A program made the position numbers and the translations under genes. This document shows, piece by piece, positions 4,697-59,398 of a DNA stretch of 64,000 bases. The notes under the pieces were generated by a model, which saw only the letters and a program-made list of their open reading frames with translations, searched no databases and had not been told where the DNA came from. The DNA is from Campylobacter sp. Lineage in GTDB: Bacteria; Campylobacterota; Campylobacteria; Campylobacterales; Campylobacteraceae. The stretch spans positions 9,974-73,973 of the forward strand of contig NZ_JAUMZG010000001.1 in assembly GCF_030528245.1 (NCBI RefSeq). Direction: 5' to 3'. The number at the start of each line of letters is the position of its first letter. Within the stretch, counting starts at the first letter, position 1.

Positions 4697-5778
4697 TGGC
4701 AGAGATACTCTCTCAAGAAGAAATCGACGCCCTCTTGGAGGTTGTTGATGATAACGCCGACTCTAACATCAGCTCCAATGCCAAAGAAGAAAAAGACGAG
4801 CGCAACATTGTCGTTTATGACTTCAAGCGCCCCAACAGGGTCTCCAAAGAGCAACTGCGCACCATCAAGGGCATACACGATAAATTGGCCAGAAATTTAG
4901 CCTCTCAAATTTCTTCAATGATGCGCAGTATCGTCGAAACCAAGCTCCACTCGGTCGATCAAATGACTTATGGGGAATTTTTGATGTCCCTGCCAAGTCC
5001 TACAAGCTTCAATGTCTTTTCTATTAAGCCTCTTGATGGAAATTGTGTTCTAGAGATTAACCCAAGCATTGCTTTTCCTATGATAGACAGACTTTTAGGA
5101 GGGCAGGGCGATAGCTATGAGGCGAGTCGTGAGCTTACGGACATAGAATTAAATTTGCTTGATAGTATTTTGCGTATCATCATGCAAAGGCTTAAAGAAA
5201 GCTGGTCATCCGTGACTGAAATTTATCCCAGCATCGAGGCTAAGGAGAGCAGCCCCAATGTCGTGCAAATCGTCTCTCAAAACGAGATTATCATTATGGT
5301 GGTGATGGAGATTATCATAGGAAATTCAAGCGGTATGGTAAATATTTGCTATCCTGTCGTGCATTTGGAGAGTATTTTGAGCCGCCTTGCAAACCGCGAT
5401 ATCATGATGGGTGAAACCTCAGCGAAAAAATCGAGAAACAAGGAGCTTAAAACCCTCATCGGTCGCGCGGAGGTTGTTTTTGAGGCGATCTTGGGCAAAA
5501 CCCTCATCAATGTCCATGAATTCTTGGAGCTTAAGCAGGGTGATATTTTAAGGCTTGATAGAGAAGCGGACGATAAGTCCATCGTAAGCATCGATAAAAA
5601 GGATGTCTTCCTCGCGCAAATCGGTCTGCATCGTTTTAGAAAGTCCATTAAAATCATAGAACTCATCCGCACCGACAAGGATGAAATCAAAGAAATTTTA
5701 GAAAAATACGAAGAAGAGAGAAAGGCGAAGGCGAGTGTTTATGATGAAATTGAGGATTTGGAGGATGAGGAAATATGA
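4696..5778 (+). CDS. fliM: Flagellar motor switch protein FliM
   Basis: LSQEEIDALL CheY-binding peptide, YDFKRP motif. Confidence 0.97.
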   Translation: MAEILSQEEIDALLEVVDDNADSNISSNAKEEKDERNIVVYDFKRPNRVSKEQLRTIKGIHDKLARNLASQISSMMRSIVETKLHSVDQMTYGEFLMSLPSPTSFNVFSIKPLDGNCVLEINPSIAFPMIDRLLGGQGDSYEASRELTDIELNLLDSILRIIMQRLKESWSSVTEIYPSIEAKESSPNVVQIVSQNEIIIMVVMEIIIGNSSGMVNICYPVVHLESILSRLANRDIMMGETSAKKSRNKELKTLIGRAEVVFEAILGKTLINVHEFLELKQGDILRLDREADDKSIVSIDKKDVFLAQIGLHRFRKSIKIIELIRTDKDEIKEILEKYEEERKAKASVYDEIEDLEDEEI

Positions 5779-55100: not shown

Positions 55101-55127
55101 TTCAAGGCTGGGGATTCCAGCCTTGAA
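55101..55127. terminator. Probable bidirectional intrinsic terminator
   Basis: Perfect 11-bp stem TTCAAGGCTGG / CCAGCCTTGAA with a 5-nt loop, between converging trxA and the Hpt-like fragment. Confidence 0.75.
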
Positions 55128-55140
55128 GTTATCTTAAGTT

Positions 55141-55320
55141 TCAAGCCGTATTATGCGCTAAGGTATCAAGCTCCTTTATGGCCTCTTTGTATTTTATTTT
55201 ATCGCTACCCAGCTTGACAGTAAGGGGCTCAAATTCATCGCAGAATTTTCTAAAAAAGTGCAAAAATTTCTCCACCGCCTCGCCCTCATACTCAAGCTCT
55301 AATTTTGTCAAAATCCCCAT
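55141..55320 (-). pseudogene. Truncated Hpt-like (histidine phosphotransfer) protein, Cj1361c homolog
   Basis: MGILTKLELEYE...AIKELDTLAHNTA* matches the N-terminal half of the gene normally divergent from ruvB; stops where homologs continue with W. Own TGcTACAAT -10 at 55347-55355. Confidence 0.65.
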
Positions 55321-55358
55321 TTTCACCGCTTTAATTTTTTAGCACGATTGTAGCAAAT

Positions 55359-55961
55359 TTAAGCTAACACCTCCGCATAAGCCTCCCTCTCCCTCTCCTG
55401 CCATAACACCACGCTTTTTATACACTCTTTTTGGATAGCTTTGATAAAAGATTCTATAAAGTCAAAATCAATATTATGAGAATCTAAAACAGGCAGTAAA
55501 ATCTCTGTTTTATTGAAAGTCTTCTCAAAATCTCTCACTAAAACACCTTGAAAAATCTTTTGATTTTTATTTAGCCAAGCGATGAAAAATTGTGCGATTG
55601 TAGTATTGAGCCCATTAAATTTTGGATATAAAGTTTTAGTAAATTGCCCTGCATAAAAGTCCTTTTGCATATAGAAAAACTGCATTCCAAGCATACCTAC
55701 GGCTATGCTTTCTCCCTTGATTTTATGCTCCTCGTCCAAATACTCCACATAACCTGCTATGCCATTATTTAAACAAGTGCGCGTAAAGTAAGGGTATGGG
55801 GCATTTTCGCTAAAACTAAAACTATCCTTATTTAACTGCGGATTAGACTTCACACTAAAAAGCTCTTCACATTTAAAGCTTTTCCACTGAAGAGATGAGT
55901 GTGTAGAATCTGTGCTATAAGTTTTGCAAAACGCTTCATACTCACTAAGGGTAAATCTTAC
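55359..55961 (-). CDS. Out-of-frame third specificity module (TRD plus C-terminal helix) of the RM enzyme, reachable only through G-tract slippage
   Basis: Frame open from the last G of the tract: VRFTLSEY...QWKSFKCEELFSV...YPYFTRTCLNNGIAGY...IDFDFIESFIKAIQK...*; a stop lies just upstream of the tract in this frame. Confidence 0.8.
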   Translation of the reverse strand, partial: VRFTLSEYEAFCKTYSTDSTHSSLQWKSFKCEELFSVKSNPQLNKDSFSFSENAPYPYFTRTCLNNGIAGYVEYLDEEHKIKGESIAVGMLGMQFFYMQKDFYAGQFTKTLYPKFNGLNTTIAQFFIAWLNKNQKIFQGVLVRDFEKTFNKTEILLPVLDSHNIDFDFIESFIKAIQKECIKSVVLWQEREREAYAEVLA

Positions 55962-58900
55962 CCCCCCCCCCCGTTAATCACGGCATCATAAGCTTTTAGC
56001 TTAGTCTCCCAAAAAGCATAAATTTTTTCAATGTGCTGTTTTTCTATGGCTTTGATGAAAGTTTCCATAAAGGTAAAATTTATCGTGCCAGAATTTAAAA
56101 TAGGCAGCAAAACGCACACATTTTTTAAAACCCCCACATTAAAAGAGCTACTCCCCCAGCTAAAACTAGAAAAAGCCCTTTTCATCACAGCGATAAGAAA
56201 ATTTGCTTTATATCTATCTAAATTACCCTTTTTAAAAGTAAAGATTTTGATTTTATCACCTGTAAAATAGGGGCTTGTTTGATAAAAAATCGTAGCCGTA
56301 TCTTGCCCAAAGCTTATCGTATTTGCTTCGTTTAAAAAGGCTTCATCTTTATCAATATACCCACGAATTCCATTATTAGAATCCCCTCTTGCCACATAAG
56401 GATATTTTCCATTAAACCTAAGTTCATTAGCATTAAATTTTTTCTTAGGTGTGCTTACCTCAAACAACTCCCCAAGCTTAAATTCCCTCCACTCTATGCC
56501 CTCTTTTGCACTGCTAGATTCTAGCTCTTTTTGTGCGAGGGTGCTTAGGGCAGTGTTAGCAAAGCTCTGCCACTCTCTAGAATCTGTAAGCGTAGAATCT
56601 TGTAAGGCTTTAATCGGCATTTCGTGTGAAATGCCGATTACTCTCTCGTTTGGTATGCTTAGATTCTCAAAAGCTTTTAAGGCTTCTTTTTCTTTTTGCG
56701 TTAGGGTGTAATCATCTAAGCCTGTAACCTTAAGATAGGCTTCAAGTTCTTGAAGACGCTCGGCTTCAAGTTCTTTAATGTAGCTTTCCATAAAGTCAAA
56801 AGCGATTTGCTCGTTTAAAACGGGCAGGGTTATAAACTCCTTGGAAACCTTAGCCCAGCCTGATTTGTTGTTCCAGTTGTATTTTTGCAAGATTTTTTGC
56901 AAAAGTGAGGTAAGGTAAAGATAGCAAAGTGAGCTTAACTCCGCACCATCTTGCATAAATTCACTCCTAAAACGCAAAGCATACGCATCCTGCAAGATAG
57001 CAAATTCGTGCGGCTGATAAAAGGCCGGCGCATCGCCGTTTGCCGCTACTGAAATGACATTTTTTAAAATTTTTGCCCCGCCGCGTGGCATATAGCAGGC
57101 TATGCCTTGATTTACACTTGTGCAAGTAATGGCGGGTAGGTCGCACTCTGCACTCGGCTCTGTGGGTAAATTTCCCTTCGCGTAAGCGTGTTTTGTAGGT
57201 TTGATGTGCTCAAACAACTCCCCAAGCTTAAATTCCCTCCACGCGCCCCCGTTTTGCTTGAAGTCGTTTTCAAGCTTTGCTAAACGAGGGCTAAGGGCGT
57301 TTCCCTCCGTCCCACCTTGTGTAGAATTTTTCAGCACATTGCTTACTTCCCACGCTAGATACTCACTCACGCATTTTTTAAAGTCCGCCAAAGTGGGCGT
57401 TGTGTCTATCTTTTTATGCTGGTCAAAGTTCCAGTCCGCCCCACTTTCACTAATGAAATCTTCTACATACACTTCGCTTAAGTTAATGGGCTTTTCATAC
57501 GCATTATTGTCAATCTTGGCGTTCAAGCCCTGCTTGTAGATTTTAAGAATGTCTCGGTATCTTTGGGTGGGGTTATCCACTTCTTGCAAGCTTCTTTTTG
57601 TGCGTTTGTAGCCGTCATTTCTAAAGTCTATAAATTTCACAGGCTTTTCAAAATCGTGCGGGATTTTGGCCTCAAAGATATAAATGCTTGTTTGCACACC
57701 TGCCATAGGCTGAAATAAATCTATGGGCATTTTGATGCTAGCCTTTAGCGTGTGCTTTGTGAGTATGGACTGCGTGATGGGGGTGGCTTGTCCATTGCCC
57801 GCGCTATCTTGGATGATGATAGCTCCTAAGCCATGACGCTGCATCCTATCGAGTCCAAATTCTATAAAGGGCAGTCCGTTGTAATCCCAAGTGAAGGGGG
57901 GATTAAGCAAGATTCTCGTGGGGGCAAAGTTTAGATAAAGCGAGTCCTCTGTCTCAAAGGTATTGGCCTTATAAATTTTGCTCGAGCCATCCCCGCGTAA
58001 AATCATATTTGCAGTAGCTAGGGCAAACATCTCGGCGTTATACTCCACGCCTAAAAGCTGCTTGGTCTTAAGCTCTAAAATGGCTTTATTTGCCTGCGTG
58101 CTGTGCTTGCTGTGCTTTTTATAGACATCTTCTATCATTTGCTCCATACTGGAGATGAGAAATCCAGCTGATCCTGTGGCTAAGTCCATAACCCTATCTT
58201 CCTGTGTGATGTCTAGGATTTGAGTCATCATTTTGGTAACATAAGGGGGAGTTAGGACTATGCCTAGCTCCTTGCCATCGCCTAGGGCGTATTTTAAAAA
58301 CTCACTGTAACACTCACCCATAATGTCCAAATGCCCATTAAGCCCATCAATCTCTTTATAAATATGCGTGTAAATGTAGGCGAAAATCTGCTTATTGATA
58401 CTTGAGGGCTCTTTGAGAATGTGGGCTATGATTTTGTGGTTTGGATTTTTCTTCTCGCCCTCTTTGTAAGTGAAATTTTTAGGAATTTTATCCCTGTCGC
58501 TATCTTTTCTAATTTCATTGAAAGAATCTAACATAAGCTTTCTTTTTGCACCATCTGGGACCTTGACCTCTAAAAATTCTTTAATGCGCTCAAACACTCG
58601 CTCCCCATCTCTTAGCCCCTCATCTTGTCGGCCATGCAAATCATCCGGGCTTAGCCCCTTGGTCGGGATTTTATACTCGCTACGCATCACGCTTTGCATG
58701 GATAGAATCATACCTGCGATGTAAAGCACTCTTTGGGGGGCAGTGATGTTGTGATTGTGCATAAGCTTATTGAGCTGGGCACTATGGTAGGACAAATGCC
58801 CCTTAGCTCTTAATAATAGCTTATGCTTGTCCGCTTCTGTGAGCCTACACTCTTGCTCGTAAAAATTTGCAAAGCTGTGTGAATTTTCTAAAAAGTCTAA

Positions 58901-59398
58901 ATTCGCACCTTGTGTCTCCTTGTAGGAGAGCGAAGAGTCCGCAAAGACGCAAGCGATTTTTACCCTTACATTTTGCGCGCTATCGCCTGCTATGCCTATG
59001 GCGATGATTTCTTTGTAGGGATTTTGCTTTTGACTTTCATTTTGCAATGCCACCCTTGCATAATGCAAGGCCCCATTTAGGGCGTATTTGCTAATGGCAT
59101 CATTAGAAAAATCTAGAGCTTTTTCATTATCCTTTGCGTATTTTTCAAGCTTGCCAGCACCCAGCTTACACTCAAAAATAATGGGAATAATCCCATCATC
59201 AATCTTGTATTTTTCTATCACAAAATCAGGCACTCCCGTGCCGCTTTGCTTTTTAGTCTTGCTTGCGCCTTTTAGGGCGTCTTTGAGATAGGCGCTTGCA
59301 TCTTTTTCTAAAAAATCCTTGCCAAATTTCAACCCGATGGATTTTAGCCTACATCGCACCCACTCATCAACTAAAATTTCTTTCTTCCACGCGTCCAT
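55958..59398 (-). CDS. Single-chain restriction-modification enzyme: PD-(D/E)xK nuclease, gamma-class N6-adenine MTase and two TRDs (BcgI-like type IIB/IIG)
   Basis: PD...ECK nuclease motif, GIVLTP, DLATGSAGFL (motif I), NPPF (motif IV), two WREFKLGELFE-initiated TRDs separated by the ELEAERLQELEAYL helix. Confidence 0.9.
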   Translation of the reverse strand: MDAWKKEILVDEWVRCRLKSIGLKFGKDFLEKDASAYLKDALKGASKTKKQSGTGVPDFVIEKYKIDDGIIPIIFECKLGAGKLEKYAKDNEKALDFSNDAISKYALNGALHYARVALQNESQKQNPYKEIIAIGIAGDSAQNVRVKIACVFADSSLSYKETQGANLDFLENSHSFANFYEQECRLTEADKHKLLLRAKGHLSYHSAQLNKLMHNHNITAPQRVLYIAGMILSMQSVMRSEYKIPTKGLSPDDLHGRQDEGLRDGERVFERIKEFLEVKVPDGAKRKLMLDSFNEIRKDSDRDKIPKNFTYKEGEKKNPNHKIIAHILKEPSSINKQIFAYIYTHIYKEIDGLNGHLDIMGECYSEFLKYALGDGKELGIVLTPPYVTKMMTQILDITQEDRVMDLATGSAGFLISSMEQMIEDVYKKHSKHSTQANKAILELKTKQLLGVEYNAEMFALATANMILRGDGSSKIYKANTFETEDSLYLNFAPTRILLNPPFTWDYNGLPFIEFGLDRMQRHGLGAIIIQDSAGNGQATPITQSILTKHTLKASIKMPIDLFQPMAGVQTSIYIFEAKIPHDFEKPVKFIDFRNDGYKRTKRSLQEVDNPTQRYRDILKIYKQGLNAKIDNNAYEKPINLSEVYVEDFISESGADWNFDQHKKIDTTPTLADFKKCVSEYLAWEVSNVLKNSTQGGTEGNALSPRLAKLENDFKQNGGAWREFKLGELFEHIKPTKHAYAKGNLPTEPSAECDLPAITCTSVNQGIACYMPRGGAKILKNVISVAANGDAPAFYQPHEFAILQDAYALRFRSEFMQDGAELSSLCYLYLTSLLQKILQKYNWNNKSGWAKVSKEFITLPVLNEQIAFDFMESYIKELEAERLQELEAYLKVTGLDDYTLTQKEKEALKAFENLSIPNERVIGISHEMPIKALQDSTLTDSREWQSFANTALSTLAQKELESSSAKEGIEWREFKLGELFEVSTPKKKFNANELRFNGKYPYVARGDSNNGIRGYIDKDEAFLNEANTISFGQDTATIFYQTSPYFTGDKIKIFTFKKGNLDRYKANFLIAVMKRAFSSFSWGSSSFNVGVLKNVCVLLPILNSGTINFTFMETFIKAIEKQHIEKIYAFWETKLKAYDAVINGGGG
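55961..55972 (-). repeat. Homopolymeric G12 tract (contingency/phase-variation locus)
   Basis: C12 on + strand immediately before the RM stop codon; longest G/C run noticed in the window. Confidence 0.9.
56459..57242. repeat. Exact 34-bp direct repeat (56459-56492 and 57209-57242), 750 bp apart
   Basis: CTCAAACAACTCCCCAAGCTTAAATTCCCTCCAC occurs twice and encodes WREFKLGELFE on the - strand. Confidence 0.92.

What the first reader, a model, noticed from the sequence alone, without database searches (positions are those of the whole stretch)
55359..59398. Single-chain RM enzyme whose G12 tract can add a third target-recognition domain (specificity switch rather than ON/OFF)
Seen: a 1146-aa nuclease+MTase+TRD1+TRD2 protein ends ...VINGGGG* directly after G12. 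At G10 or G13 the frame continues (VRFTLSEY...QWKSFKCEELF...) through a complete third TRD with its own terminal helix to 55359, about 1346 aa in total. G11 stops after 4-5 extra residues. Every tract length keeps the catalytic domains and TRD1-2, so slippage does not inactivate the enzyme. TRD2 and TRD3 both end in a homologous I(N/D)F.F(M/I)E.FIKAI.K helix, so they look like alternative C-terminal partners. Known: poly-G tracts are hypermutable in Campylobacter, and frameshift-mediated specificity change is described for Helicobacter pylori RM enzymes. Inference: a population-level switch between two- and three-TRD forms, with different bipartite methylation motifs, acting as a bet-hedging anti-phage system or phasevarion.
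Basis: partly seen in the sequence, partly recalled or inferred. Interest (0 to 1): 0.85.

Follow-up and report, generated by a model that had tools for sequence, protein, structure and literature searches.

The report
Poly-G switch adds third recognition domain
A run of 12 G's at the end of an all-in-one restriction-modification enzyme of a Campylobacter decides whether a third DNA-recognition module is attached; this slippage switch is already described for separate specificity genes, but here it sits in a single-chain enzyme shared among Campylobacter and Helicobacter.

Summary
The 1146-aa gene (55958-59398, minus strand) encodes a PD..ExK nuclease motif, an N6-adenine methylase and two HsdS-type TRDs. 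It stops at a TAA directly after a G12 tract (55961-55972). G13 or G10 would read on through a third Methylase_S module (Pfam E 5.8e-14) to 55359, giving 1346 aa.

Relatives carry the same junction with G8, G10, G12, G13, G14 and G15. Both the stopped form and the read-through 3-TRD form occur in nature, for example Campylobacter upsaliensis (1353 aa) and the Helicobacter canis type strain (about 1409 aa). Two relatives encode three TRDs in frame at this junction; one has no G run there. TRD3 is under strong purifying selection (dN/dS 0.05-0.10). The short form models as a complete HsdS-like unit.

The change of methylation motif is inferred from precedent only. Variation within one clone could not be tested.

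It is not a new principle. Atack et al. 2020 (PMC7383803) described 'extended' phase-variable three-TRD hsdS genes. Krebes et al. 2014 (PMC3936762) described a three-TRD HsdS and a homopolymer-added recognition domain. What I found no description of is the fused R-M-S setting and a second repeat, (AG)n or poly-G, at the TRD1/TRD2 junction in relatives. This scan has noted similar switches on other DNA.

The parts
55958..59398 (-). Single-chain R-M-S gene, short (G12) form, 1146 aa
   Evidence: ORF list and translation; Pfam N6_Mtase plus 2x Methylase_S
59165..59236 (-). N-terminal nuclease motif: PD (residues 57-58) ... E-C-K (residues 76-78), PD-(D/E)XK type
   Evidence: Seen in the translation. 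Relatives carry precomputed VRR_NUC hits. No Pfam hit for residues 1-360 of this protein.
57455..58327 (-). N6-adenine methyltransferase domain (residues 358-648; NPPF at 57893-57904)
   Evidence: Pfam PF02384, E 4.9e-27; motif position
56717..57241 (-). TRD1 plus first connector helix CR1 (residues 720-894)
   Evidence: Pfam Methylase_S; AF2 model and match to HsdS structures; coordinates
56639..56650 (-). Codons N-E-R-V, which hold the (AG)3 remnant of the dinucleotide repeat. Relatives carry (AG)6 to (AG)12 here, and it frameshifts some of them after TRD1.
   Evidence: DNA comparison; truncated proteins P0013, P0015, P0023, P0077, P0085, P0106
55976..56491 (-). TRD2 plus connector helix CR2 (residues 970-1141)
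   Evidence: Pfam Methylase_S 969-1126; C-terminal helix 453-486 of the model; coordinates
55961..55972 (-). G12 homopolymer (codes GGGG), followed at once by TAAG. The stop is in frame at G12.
55362..55958 (-). Linker, third TRD and CR3 (199 codons). Read only at G10, G13 or G16; the stop is at 55359-55361.
   Evidence: Pfam Methylase_S E 5.8e-14; alignment with TRD2-CR2; 93-94% nt identity to TRD3 of relatives; dN/dS 0.05-0.10
55101..55127 (-). Terminator-like hairpin (11 pairs). It lies between the convergent trxA and the R-M-S gene and is the first such site downstream of the tract on this strand.
   Evidence: trxA assignment

Best explanation
The gene encodes a single-chain restriction-modification-specificity enzyme: an N-terminal PD..ExK nuclease motif, an N6-adenine methylase, then HsdS-like TRD-helix modules. 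It looks like the AloI/CjeI type of Type IIB enzyme. The poly-G tract at the end of the second connector helix is a slippage-prone contingency repeat. At G12 or G15 translation stops on the TAA that directly follows the tract. The product is then a complete two-TRD enzyme. At G10, G13 or G16 translation continues through a short linker into a third TRD with its own helix, giving a 1346-aa three-TRD enzyme. At G11 or G14 four junk residues are added before a stop. The catalytic domains and TRD1-TRD2 are present at every length. The switch is therefore expected to change or add a bipartite recognition sequence for both methylation and cleavage, not to turn the enzyme off. Shown here: the architecture, the length polymorphism between strains and species, the natural occurrence of both forms, and selection on TRD3. 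Inferred: high-rate reversible switching in this strain, and a different motif for the long form.
For: Anatomy of the locus.

The same junction, with near-identical flanks, has different tract lengths in relatives:
- G12 in the window and in another species of the same genus that carries a different but open TRD3 allele.
- G13 in C. upsaliensis (1353-aa fused protein P0025), in the H. canis type strain (fully open, about 1409 aa) and in H. bilis.
- G15 in an ENA contig.
- G14-type and G10-type protein ends.
- G8 in an uncultured Campylobacter.

Among full-length proteins with this junction, 5 member sequences read through and 26 stop at it.

Three-TRD relatives in frame at this junction: P0046 reads ..RGGAEF.., so no long G run; P0128, DNA not fetched; a 68%-identical relative has G8 there. 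So a three-TRD chain is a viable form.

TRD3 shows dN/dS 0.05-0.10 at dS 0.13-0.39, including between two alleles that are both currently out of frame.

The short form ends at the position homologous to the natural C-terminus of two-TRD relatives. Its S region aligns end to end with a solved HsdS (1ydx, Z 14.3, rmsd 6.8 A, 335 residues).

No terminator-like site lies between the tract and the TRD3 stop.

The genome has 56 G/C runs of 9 or more. No MutS_I or MutL domain was found in the 88%-complete assembly.

Precedent: in the Mannheimia haemolytica hsdS, G[n] between TRD2a and TRD2b gives CAACN4GT for the two-TRD form and CAACN5TC for the three-TRD form (PMC7383803). The H. pylori JHP1422 three-TRD HsdS methylates two motifs (PMC3936762).
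Against: - No methylome or cleavage data exist for either form.
- No raw reads of the source were available, so length heterogeneity within a clone is untested.
- The assembly's count of 12 in a homopolymer could be off by one.
- TRD cassettes move between positions and genomes. This TRD is the second TRD of some two-TRD relatives, for example L007. Purifying selection may therefore partly reflect time spent in always-translated positions.
- The AF2 model of a three-TRD S region has only moderate confidence (pLDDT 69, pTM 0.43). It does not say which TRD pair acts.
Confidence: 0.62

Rival explanations
1. It is an ON/OFF switch in disguise. Only one of the two products is active: either the three-TRD chain is the working enzyme and G12 is OFF, or the extra module poisons the enzyme. 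The tract would then toggle activity rather than specificity.
For: Most poly-G tracts in Campylobacter genes act as ON/OFF switches. The C. jejuni cj0031 Type IIG enzyme is the described case (PMC4889913, listed). The relative arrangement of the three TRDs in the AF2 model is not canonical (rmsd 10-14 A to whole HsdS chains).
Against: The short form ends exactly where two-TRD relatives end and models as a complete HsdS unit. Three-TRD relatives in frame at this junction exist; one has no G run there. The TAA immediately after the tract gives a clean C-terminus. Published three-TRD HsdS proteins are active with altered or added motifs.
Confidence: 0.17
2. TRD3 is a silent cassette or a leftover of a domain duplication (DoMo-type recombination at the repeats flanking the TRDs). 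It would be used, if at all, as a donor for recombination. The poly-G tract would be incidental.
For: The three helix-coding segments share 74-79% identity over 34 nt. The starts of TRD1 and TRD2 share a 52-nt stretch at 87% identity. Alleles are mosaics: TRD2 is followed directly by the CR3-type end in P0002 and P0003, and this TRD occupies the second position in two-TRD relatives. The TRD2-TRD3 stretch has 36-37% GC against 46% for the genome. Furuta et al. 2011 describe changes from two to three TRDs by such recombination (PMC3077401).
Against: The linker and TRD3 are open in one continuous frame that joins the main frame by a one-base change in a tract. That tract is kept at this exact spot across species with varying length. 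Fused proteins exist. No stop has accumulated in TRD3 in alleles that are currently out of frame. The two explanations are not exclusive.
Confidence: 0.13
3. It is an assembly artefact. The true tract in this strain is G13, or a mixture collapsed to G12, so the split is not a property of the cells.
For: Homopolymer lengths of 12 are error-prone in most sequencing chemistries. The assembly is a 62-contig draft at 88% completeness. Another note on this window reports frameshifts in moaA.
Against: G12 is also found at this junction in an independent genome of another species. An isolate run's contig spans the tract with no gaps (run X1). Several independent assemblies stop here. Even if the count were wrong, the switch reading would stand.
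Confidence: 0.06

Closest known systems
'Extended' phase-variable hsdS genes of Mannheimia haemolytica (G[n]) and Fusobacterium nucleatum (AAGAC[n]); Atack et al. 2020, FASEB J, PMC7383803
   Same: A simple repeat lies exactly between a complete TRD1-TRD2 unit and a third TRD. One repeat length gives a two-TRD product and another a three-TRD product. REBASE motifs differ between the two Mannheimia forms. The third slot has several alleles.
   Different: Those are separate HsdS subunits of classical Type I systems, with hsdM and hsdR as other genes. Here nuclease, methylase and all TRDs are one polypeptide, so restriction and modification specificity would switch together in cis. Relatives of this gene also carry a second repeat at the TRD1/TRD2 junction.
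JHP1422 three-TRD HsdS of Helicobacter pylori J99 (M.Hpy99XV system); Krebes et al. 2014, PMC3936762
   Same: Three consecutive TRDs, each with a helical connector. It was shown experimentally to give two recognition sites by using different TRD pairs.
   Different: No repeat controls the third TRD there. TRD2 and TRD3 are identical duplicates. It is a separate S subunit.
JHP1272 / HP1353-HP1354 Type IIG enzymes of H. pylori (Hpy99XIV, HpyAXVI); Krebes et al. 2014, PMC3936762
   Same: A single-chain restriction-methylase in which a C-terminal homopolymer decides whether an extra recognition domain is appended, which changes the motif. An upstream homopolymer gives a second switch.
   Different: Those are MmeI-like enzymes with one TRD and a small 94-aa extra domain that alters two base positions. 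Here the modules are full Type I-like TRDs with coiled-coil connectors and, presumably, bipartite targets.
NgoAV hsdS poly-G switch of Neisseria gonorrhoeae (as summarised in PMC7383803)
   Same: A poly-G tract at a TRD border yields products of different TRD number, both active and with different specificity. This matches the (AG)n or poly-G switch at the TRD1/TRD2 junction in relatives.
   Different: NgoAV toggles between one and two TRDs in a separate S subunit. The window toggles between two and three.
AloI / CjeI / TstI-type single-chain Type IIB R-M-S enzymes (recalled from the literature, not tested by sequence here); the BsaXI S subunit is among the structural matches (8w0p_C)
   Same: The same domain order: nuclease, gamma-type N6-adenine methylase, two HsdS-like TRDs with connector helices, about 1150-1250 aa.
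   Different: No repeat-controlled third TRD is described for them, to my knowledge. Cleavage on both sides of the site is untested for this protein.
DoMo, domain movement at repeats flanking TRDs; Furuta et al. 2011, PMC3077401
   Same: TRDs are flanked by repeated 'handles'. Alleles have one, two or three TRDs, and TRDs move between positions and loci. This fits the mosaic relatives and the repeats.
   Different: DoMo is recombinational and slow. The poly-G tract adds a fast, reversible frame switch on top of it.

Membership tests
SSR-switched 'extended' three-TRD specificity genes (Atack 2020) | Three consecutive TRD-plus-connector modules in one reading direction | tested here: met
   Two Methylase_S stretches in the short ORF plus one in the downstream frame. 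Three stretches in the fused relatives P0025 and the H. canis ORF.
SSR-switched 'extended' three-TRD specificity genes (Atack 2020) | Simple sequence repeat placed exactly between the second connector and the third TRD | tested here: met
   G12 at 55961-55972, directly after the CR2 helix and before the linker to TRD3
SSR-switched 'extended' three-TRD specificity genes (Atack 2020) | Repeat length varies among strains and yields both two-TRD and three-TRD forms | tested here: met
   G8, G10, G12, G13, G14 and G15 at the same junction; both forms occur among natural proteins
SSR-switched 'extended' three-TRD specificity genes (Atack 2020) | The two forms have different methylation specificity | not testable with these tools
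   Needs SMRT or nanopore methylomes of locked alleles
SSR-switched 'extended' three-TRD specificity genes (Atack 2020) | A separate hsdS gene within a Type I hsdR/hsdM/hsdS system | tested here: not met
   The TRDs are fused to the methylase and to an N-terminal nuclease motif in one 1146-aa ORF. It therefore works like this family but is not a classical member.
Single-chain Type IIB R-M-S enzymes (AloI/CjeI type) | Central gamma-type N6-adenine methyltransferase with NPPF/NPPY | tested here: met
   PF02384 E 4.9e-27; NPPF at residues 499-502; best PDB sequence hit is the StySJI HsdM
Single-chain Type IIB R-M-S enzymes (AloI/CjeI type) | C-terminal HsdS-like region with two TRDs and two connector helices | tested here: met
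   Pfam. The AF2 model of residues 656-1146 aligns end to end with HsdS 1ydx (Z 14.3, rmsd 6.8 A, 335 aa).
Single-chain Type IIB R-M-S enzymes (AloI/CjeI type) | N-terminal PD-(D/E)XK endonuclease domain | tested here: inconclusive
   The PD...ECK motif is visible and relatives carry VRR_NUC hits. No Pfam family reaches E 0.01 for residues 1-360.
Single-chain Type IIB R-M-S enzymes (AloI/CjeI type) | Cleavage on both sides of a bipartite recognition site | not testable with these tools
   Biochemical property
MmeI-like Type IIG enzymes with an appended C-terminal recognition domain (JHP1272 type) | MmeI-type methylase and single MmeI-type TRD | tested here: not met
   The MmeI_Mtase hit is only E 0.032, 13.8 bits, against a cut-off of 27. 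The TRDs are Methylase_S type.

The most novel reading that the evidence does not exclude
The connector-helix / poly-G / TAAG / 'TL' linker unit may be a portable switch cassette. Recombination appears to have placed it at either inter-TRD junction of single-chain R-M-S enzymes exchanged between Campylobacter and enterohepatic Helicobacter. Together with the (AG)n repeat it would let one polypeptide exist as a one-, two- or three-TRD enzyme. Restriction and methylation specificity would then change together in cis. The three-TRD form could use two TRD pairs at once, as JHP1422 does, which would protect the genome at both motifs while the population switches.
Probability: 0.3. Interest if true: 0.65.

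Novelty: new variant of a known kind. Interest (0 to 1): 0.45.

Why it matters
If the two forms differ in motif, one base of slippage would re-aim both the cutting and the marking activity of one protein. That would give heterogeneous phage and plasmid barriers within a clone, and possibly heterogeneous methylation-dependent gene expression. The family offers a compact natural system for asking how a three-TRD chain chooses its working pair. Atack et al. explicitly left that question open for the Mannheimia hsdS. It also matters for annotation. In these genomes the third module is called as a separate 'restriction endonuclease subunit S' gene or ignored. Truncated 912-954-aa 'N-6 DNA methylase' entries are repeat-shifted states of the same gene.

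Tried and rejected
- Reads. No public run holds more than half of the sampled words, so the source's own reads were not available. The only raw-read run offered (X23) laid nothing. Run X15 holds contigs with G12 and with G14. The G14 contig has a different TRD3 body, so these are two alleles or strains, not phase variants of one clone. This gives no evidence about within-clone variation.
- AF2 of a three-TRD S region (P0025:628-1353; pLDDT 69, pTM 0.43). Whole HsdS chains align either to TRD1-CR1-TRD2-CR2 or to TRD2-CR2-TRD3-CR3, both at rmsd 10-14 A. The model does not tell which pair is used.
- NCBIfam gives only a far sub-threshold MADS2 methylase hit (58 bits against a cut-off of 720).
- Pfam finds nothing in the first 360 residues.
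- The PDB sequence search finds only an HsdM.
- Flanking genes are not shared with any related locus, so synteny could not be used to compare 'the same' locus across strains.
- Naming the organism through cluster members failed, because no names were returned. The genus was inferred from identities to the flank genes of named loci instead.
- An independent start for TRD3 was considered and rejected. There is no in-frame ATG near its beginning, and the first in-frame start (GTG at 55853) would remove the first strand of the TRD.


Full report
**What is there.** On the minus strand an ORF runs from 59398 to 55958 and encodes 1146 aa.
- It has a PD...E-C-K nuclease motif near the N-terminus (59165-59236).
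- It has an N6-adenine methylase domain (Pfam PF02384, residues 358-648, NPPF at 499-502).
- It has two Type I-style target recognition domains (Pfam Methylase_S, two stretches), each followed by a long helix.
- The protein ends ..AVINGGGG.
- The four glycines are coded by a G12 run at 55961-55972, the only G/C run of 9 or more in the window. The run is followed at once by TAAG.
- With one more G, or two fewer, the frame continues V-RFTLSEY... for 199 further codons to a stop at 55359-55361, giving 1346 aa. With G11 it ends after KIYP.
- The extra 199 residues are a third Methylase_S domain (E 5.8e-14).
- They align colinearly with TRD2 and its helix right to the C-terminus (30% identity over 187 aa, E 5e-24).

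**Context.** The gene lies between a divergent ruvB and a convergent trxA.
- A strong hairpin terminator candidate (55127-55101) follows TRD3. No such site lies between the tract and the TRD3 stop.
- The genome is a 1.42-Mb, 62-contig draft with 46% GC and 88% completeness.
- Its housekeeping proteins are 60-95% identical to those flanking the C. upsaliensis locus and only 40-54% identical to Helicobacter ones. It is therefore a Campylobacter, but not C. upsaliensis itself.
- It holds 56 G/C runs of 9 or more.
- No MutS_I or MutL domain was found. The assembly is incomplete, so this is only consistent with the mismatch-repair-poor, poly-G-mutable biology known for the genus.
- The TRD2-TRD3 stretch has 36-37% GC. 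No relative shares the flanking genes. The cassette was probably imported.

**Relatives.** The family is common in C. upsaliensis, C. helveticus and enterohepatic Helicobacter. The DNA around the tract is nearly identical in several of them, but the tract length differs:

| Source | Tract at this junction | Outcome |
|---|---|---|
| Window | G12 | stops |
| Another species of the same genus (G018) | G12 | stops; carries a different but open 202-aa TRD3 allele |
| C. upsaliensis | G13 | fused 1353-aa protein P0025 with three Methylase_S stretches |
| H. canis type strain | G13 plus (AG)12 | about 1409 aa, fully open |
| H. bilis | G13 | TRD3 in frame, but (AG)8 breaks the frame upstream |
| ENA contig | G15 | stops |
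| Further proteins | G10-type | in frame |
| Further proteins | G14-type | ends GGGGGKLYP |
| Uncultured Campylobacter | G8 | out of frame |

- Among full-length proteins with this junction, 5 member sequences read through and 26 stop. That is roughly what two stopping frames out of three would give.
- Two relatives have three TRDs in frame at this junction: H. himalayensis P0046 reads ..RGGAEF.., so no long G run; for P0128 the DNA was not fetched, and a 68%-identical relative has G8 there. So a three-TRD chain is a viable form.

**Is TRD3 alive?** Pairwise dN/dS for 162 codons of TRD3 among six alleles is 0.05-0.10 at dS 0.13-0.39. This includes the pair window (G12) versus L004 (G15), which are both out of frame now. 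A dead remnant would not look like this.

One caveat applies. The same TRD occurs as the second TRD of two-TRD relatives. Part of that selection may therefore act elsewhere and be carried in by recombination.

**Is the short form whole?** Two-TRD relatives such as P0003 end with the CR3-type helix directly after TRD2. The window's CR2 helix is homologous to it and ends at the same position. An AF2 model of residues 656-1146 (pLDDT 75, pTM 0.57) aligns from residue 55 to 486 with residues 5-366 of the 374-residue solved HsdS 1ydx (Z 14.3, rmsd 6.8 A, 335 residues). The G12 product therefore carries a complete specificity module.

**The long form.** Its model (pLDDT 69, pTM 0.43) has three well-predicted TRDs. 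Whole HsdS structures fit either modules 1-2 or modules 2-3, both poorly (rmsd 10-14 A). Which pair acts stays open.

**A second switch in the family.** In the TRD1-TRD2 linker, relatives carry (AG)6, (AG)8, (AG)9 or (AG)12, again followed by TAAG.
- Multiples of three units are in frame.
- One extra unit stops at once; two extra units stop after ten residues.
- Six database proteins of 912-954 aa end exactly there.
- In three C. upsaliensis alleles the poly-G plus 'VRFTLSEYEEFC' linker itself sits between TRD1 and TRD2.
- In an uncultured Campylobacter both junctions carry G runs (G9 and G8).
- The window has only (AG)3 (56639-56650), so here only the poly-G switch is likely to be active.
- The immediate TAA after both repeats gives clean C-termini. 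This fits selection for functional truncated products.

**Comparison with what is known.**
- Atack et al. 2020 (PMC7383803) describe 'extended phase-variable hsdS genes'. In Mannheimia haemolytica a G[n] tract between TRD2a and TRD2b gives a two-TRD HsdS (CAACN4GT) or a three-TRD HsdS (CAACN5TC). Fusobacterium nucleatum has the same design with AAGAC[n].
- Krebes et al. 2014 (PMC3936762) showed that the three-TRD HsdS JHP1422 methylates two motifs by using different TRD pairs. They also showed that a second homopolymer in the Type IIG enzymes JHP1272 and HP1353-54 appends a small recognition domain and changes the motif.
- Furuta et al. 2011 (PMC3077401) explain one-, two- and three-TRD alleles by recombination at the repeats flanking the TRDs. 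Such repeats are present here.
- The principle is therefore published. I found no description, within the searched library, of its occurrence in a fused nuclease-methylase-specificity chain, where cutting and marking would be re-aimed together. I also found none of the paired junction switches in this Campylobacter/Helicobacter family.
- This scan has itself noted comparable switches on other DNA.

**Verdict.** The functional outcome is inferred from close precedent. Within-clone switching is untested, because no reads of the source could be laid. I rate it a new variant of a known kind, of moderate interest.

Noticed in passing
window 56441-56492 and 57191-57242; 55439-55472, 56050-56083, 56773-56806: There are direct repeats at the starts of TRD1 and TRD2 (52 nt, 87% identical, with a long exact core). 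There are also repeats in the three helix-coding segments (34 nt, 74-79%). These could act as DoMo-type recombination handles that delete, duplicate or swap TRDs. They agree with the other note on this window.
   Followed up: partly
window 55200-56600 versus the rest: The TRD2-TRD3 part has 36-37% GC against 46% for the genome and 40-46% for the 5' part of the same gene. TRD3 is 93-94% identical in DNA to the H. canis, H. bilis and other loci. This suggests recent lateral import of the 3' cassette.
   Followed up: partly
relatives P0025, P0002, P0003, P0125, P0222, P0223: Many alleles carry 30-50-aa low-complexity insertions (..CHTEPLGEVS.. or ..SLRGSETSEAIH.. types) just before a connector helix or in a linker. 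They look like in-frame translations of a small repeated DNA element inserted in either orientation. The window's own gene has none.
   Followed up: no
G000 contigs C6, C8, C29, C32, C54: Clusters of long G/C runs (G11 to G21) lie on a few short contigs, several per 5-10 kb. These are probably surface-glycan or other contingency loci. Several contigs end near such runs.
   Followed up: no
L006 (H. bilis) 5566-5578: A second G13 run lies about 200 nt downstream of the R-M-S gene's stop, outside any frame I examined.
   Followed up: no
L011 (Helicobacter sp. MAG) about 4850: The TRD homologous to the window's TRD3 loses its frame in an A-rich stretch after 116 codons. This is either real decay or a MAG homopolymer error.
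   Followed up: no
window 55141-55326 (-): A 61-codon ORF with no Pfam match fills the roughly 230-nt gap between the TRD3 stop and the shared terminator with trxA.
   Followed up: no
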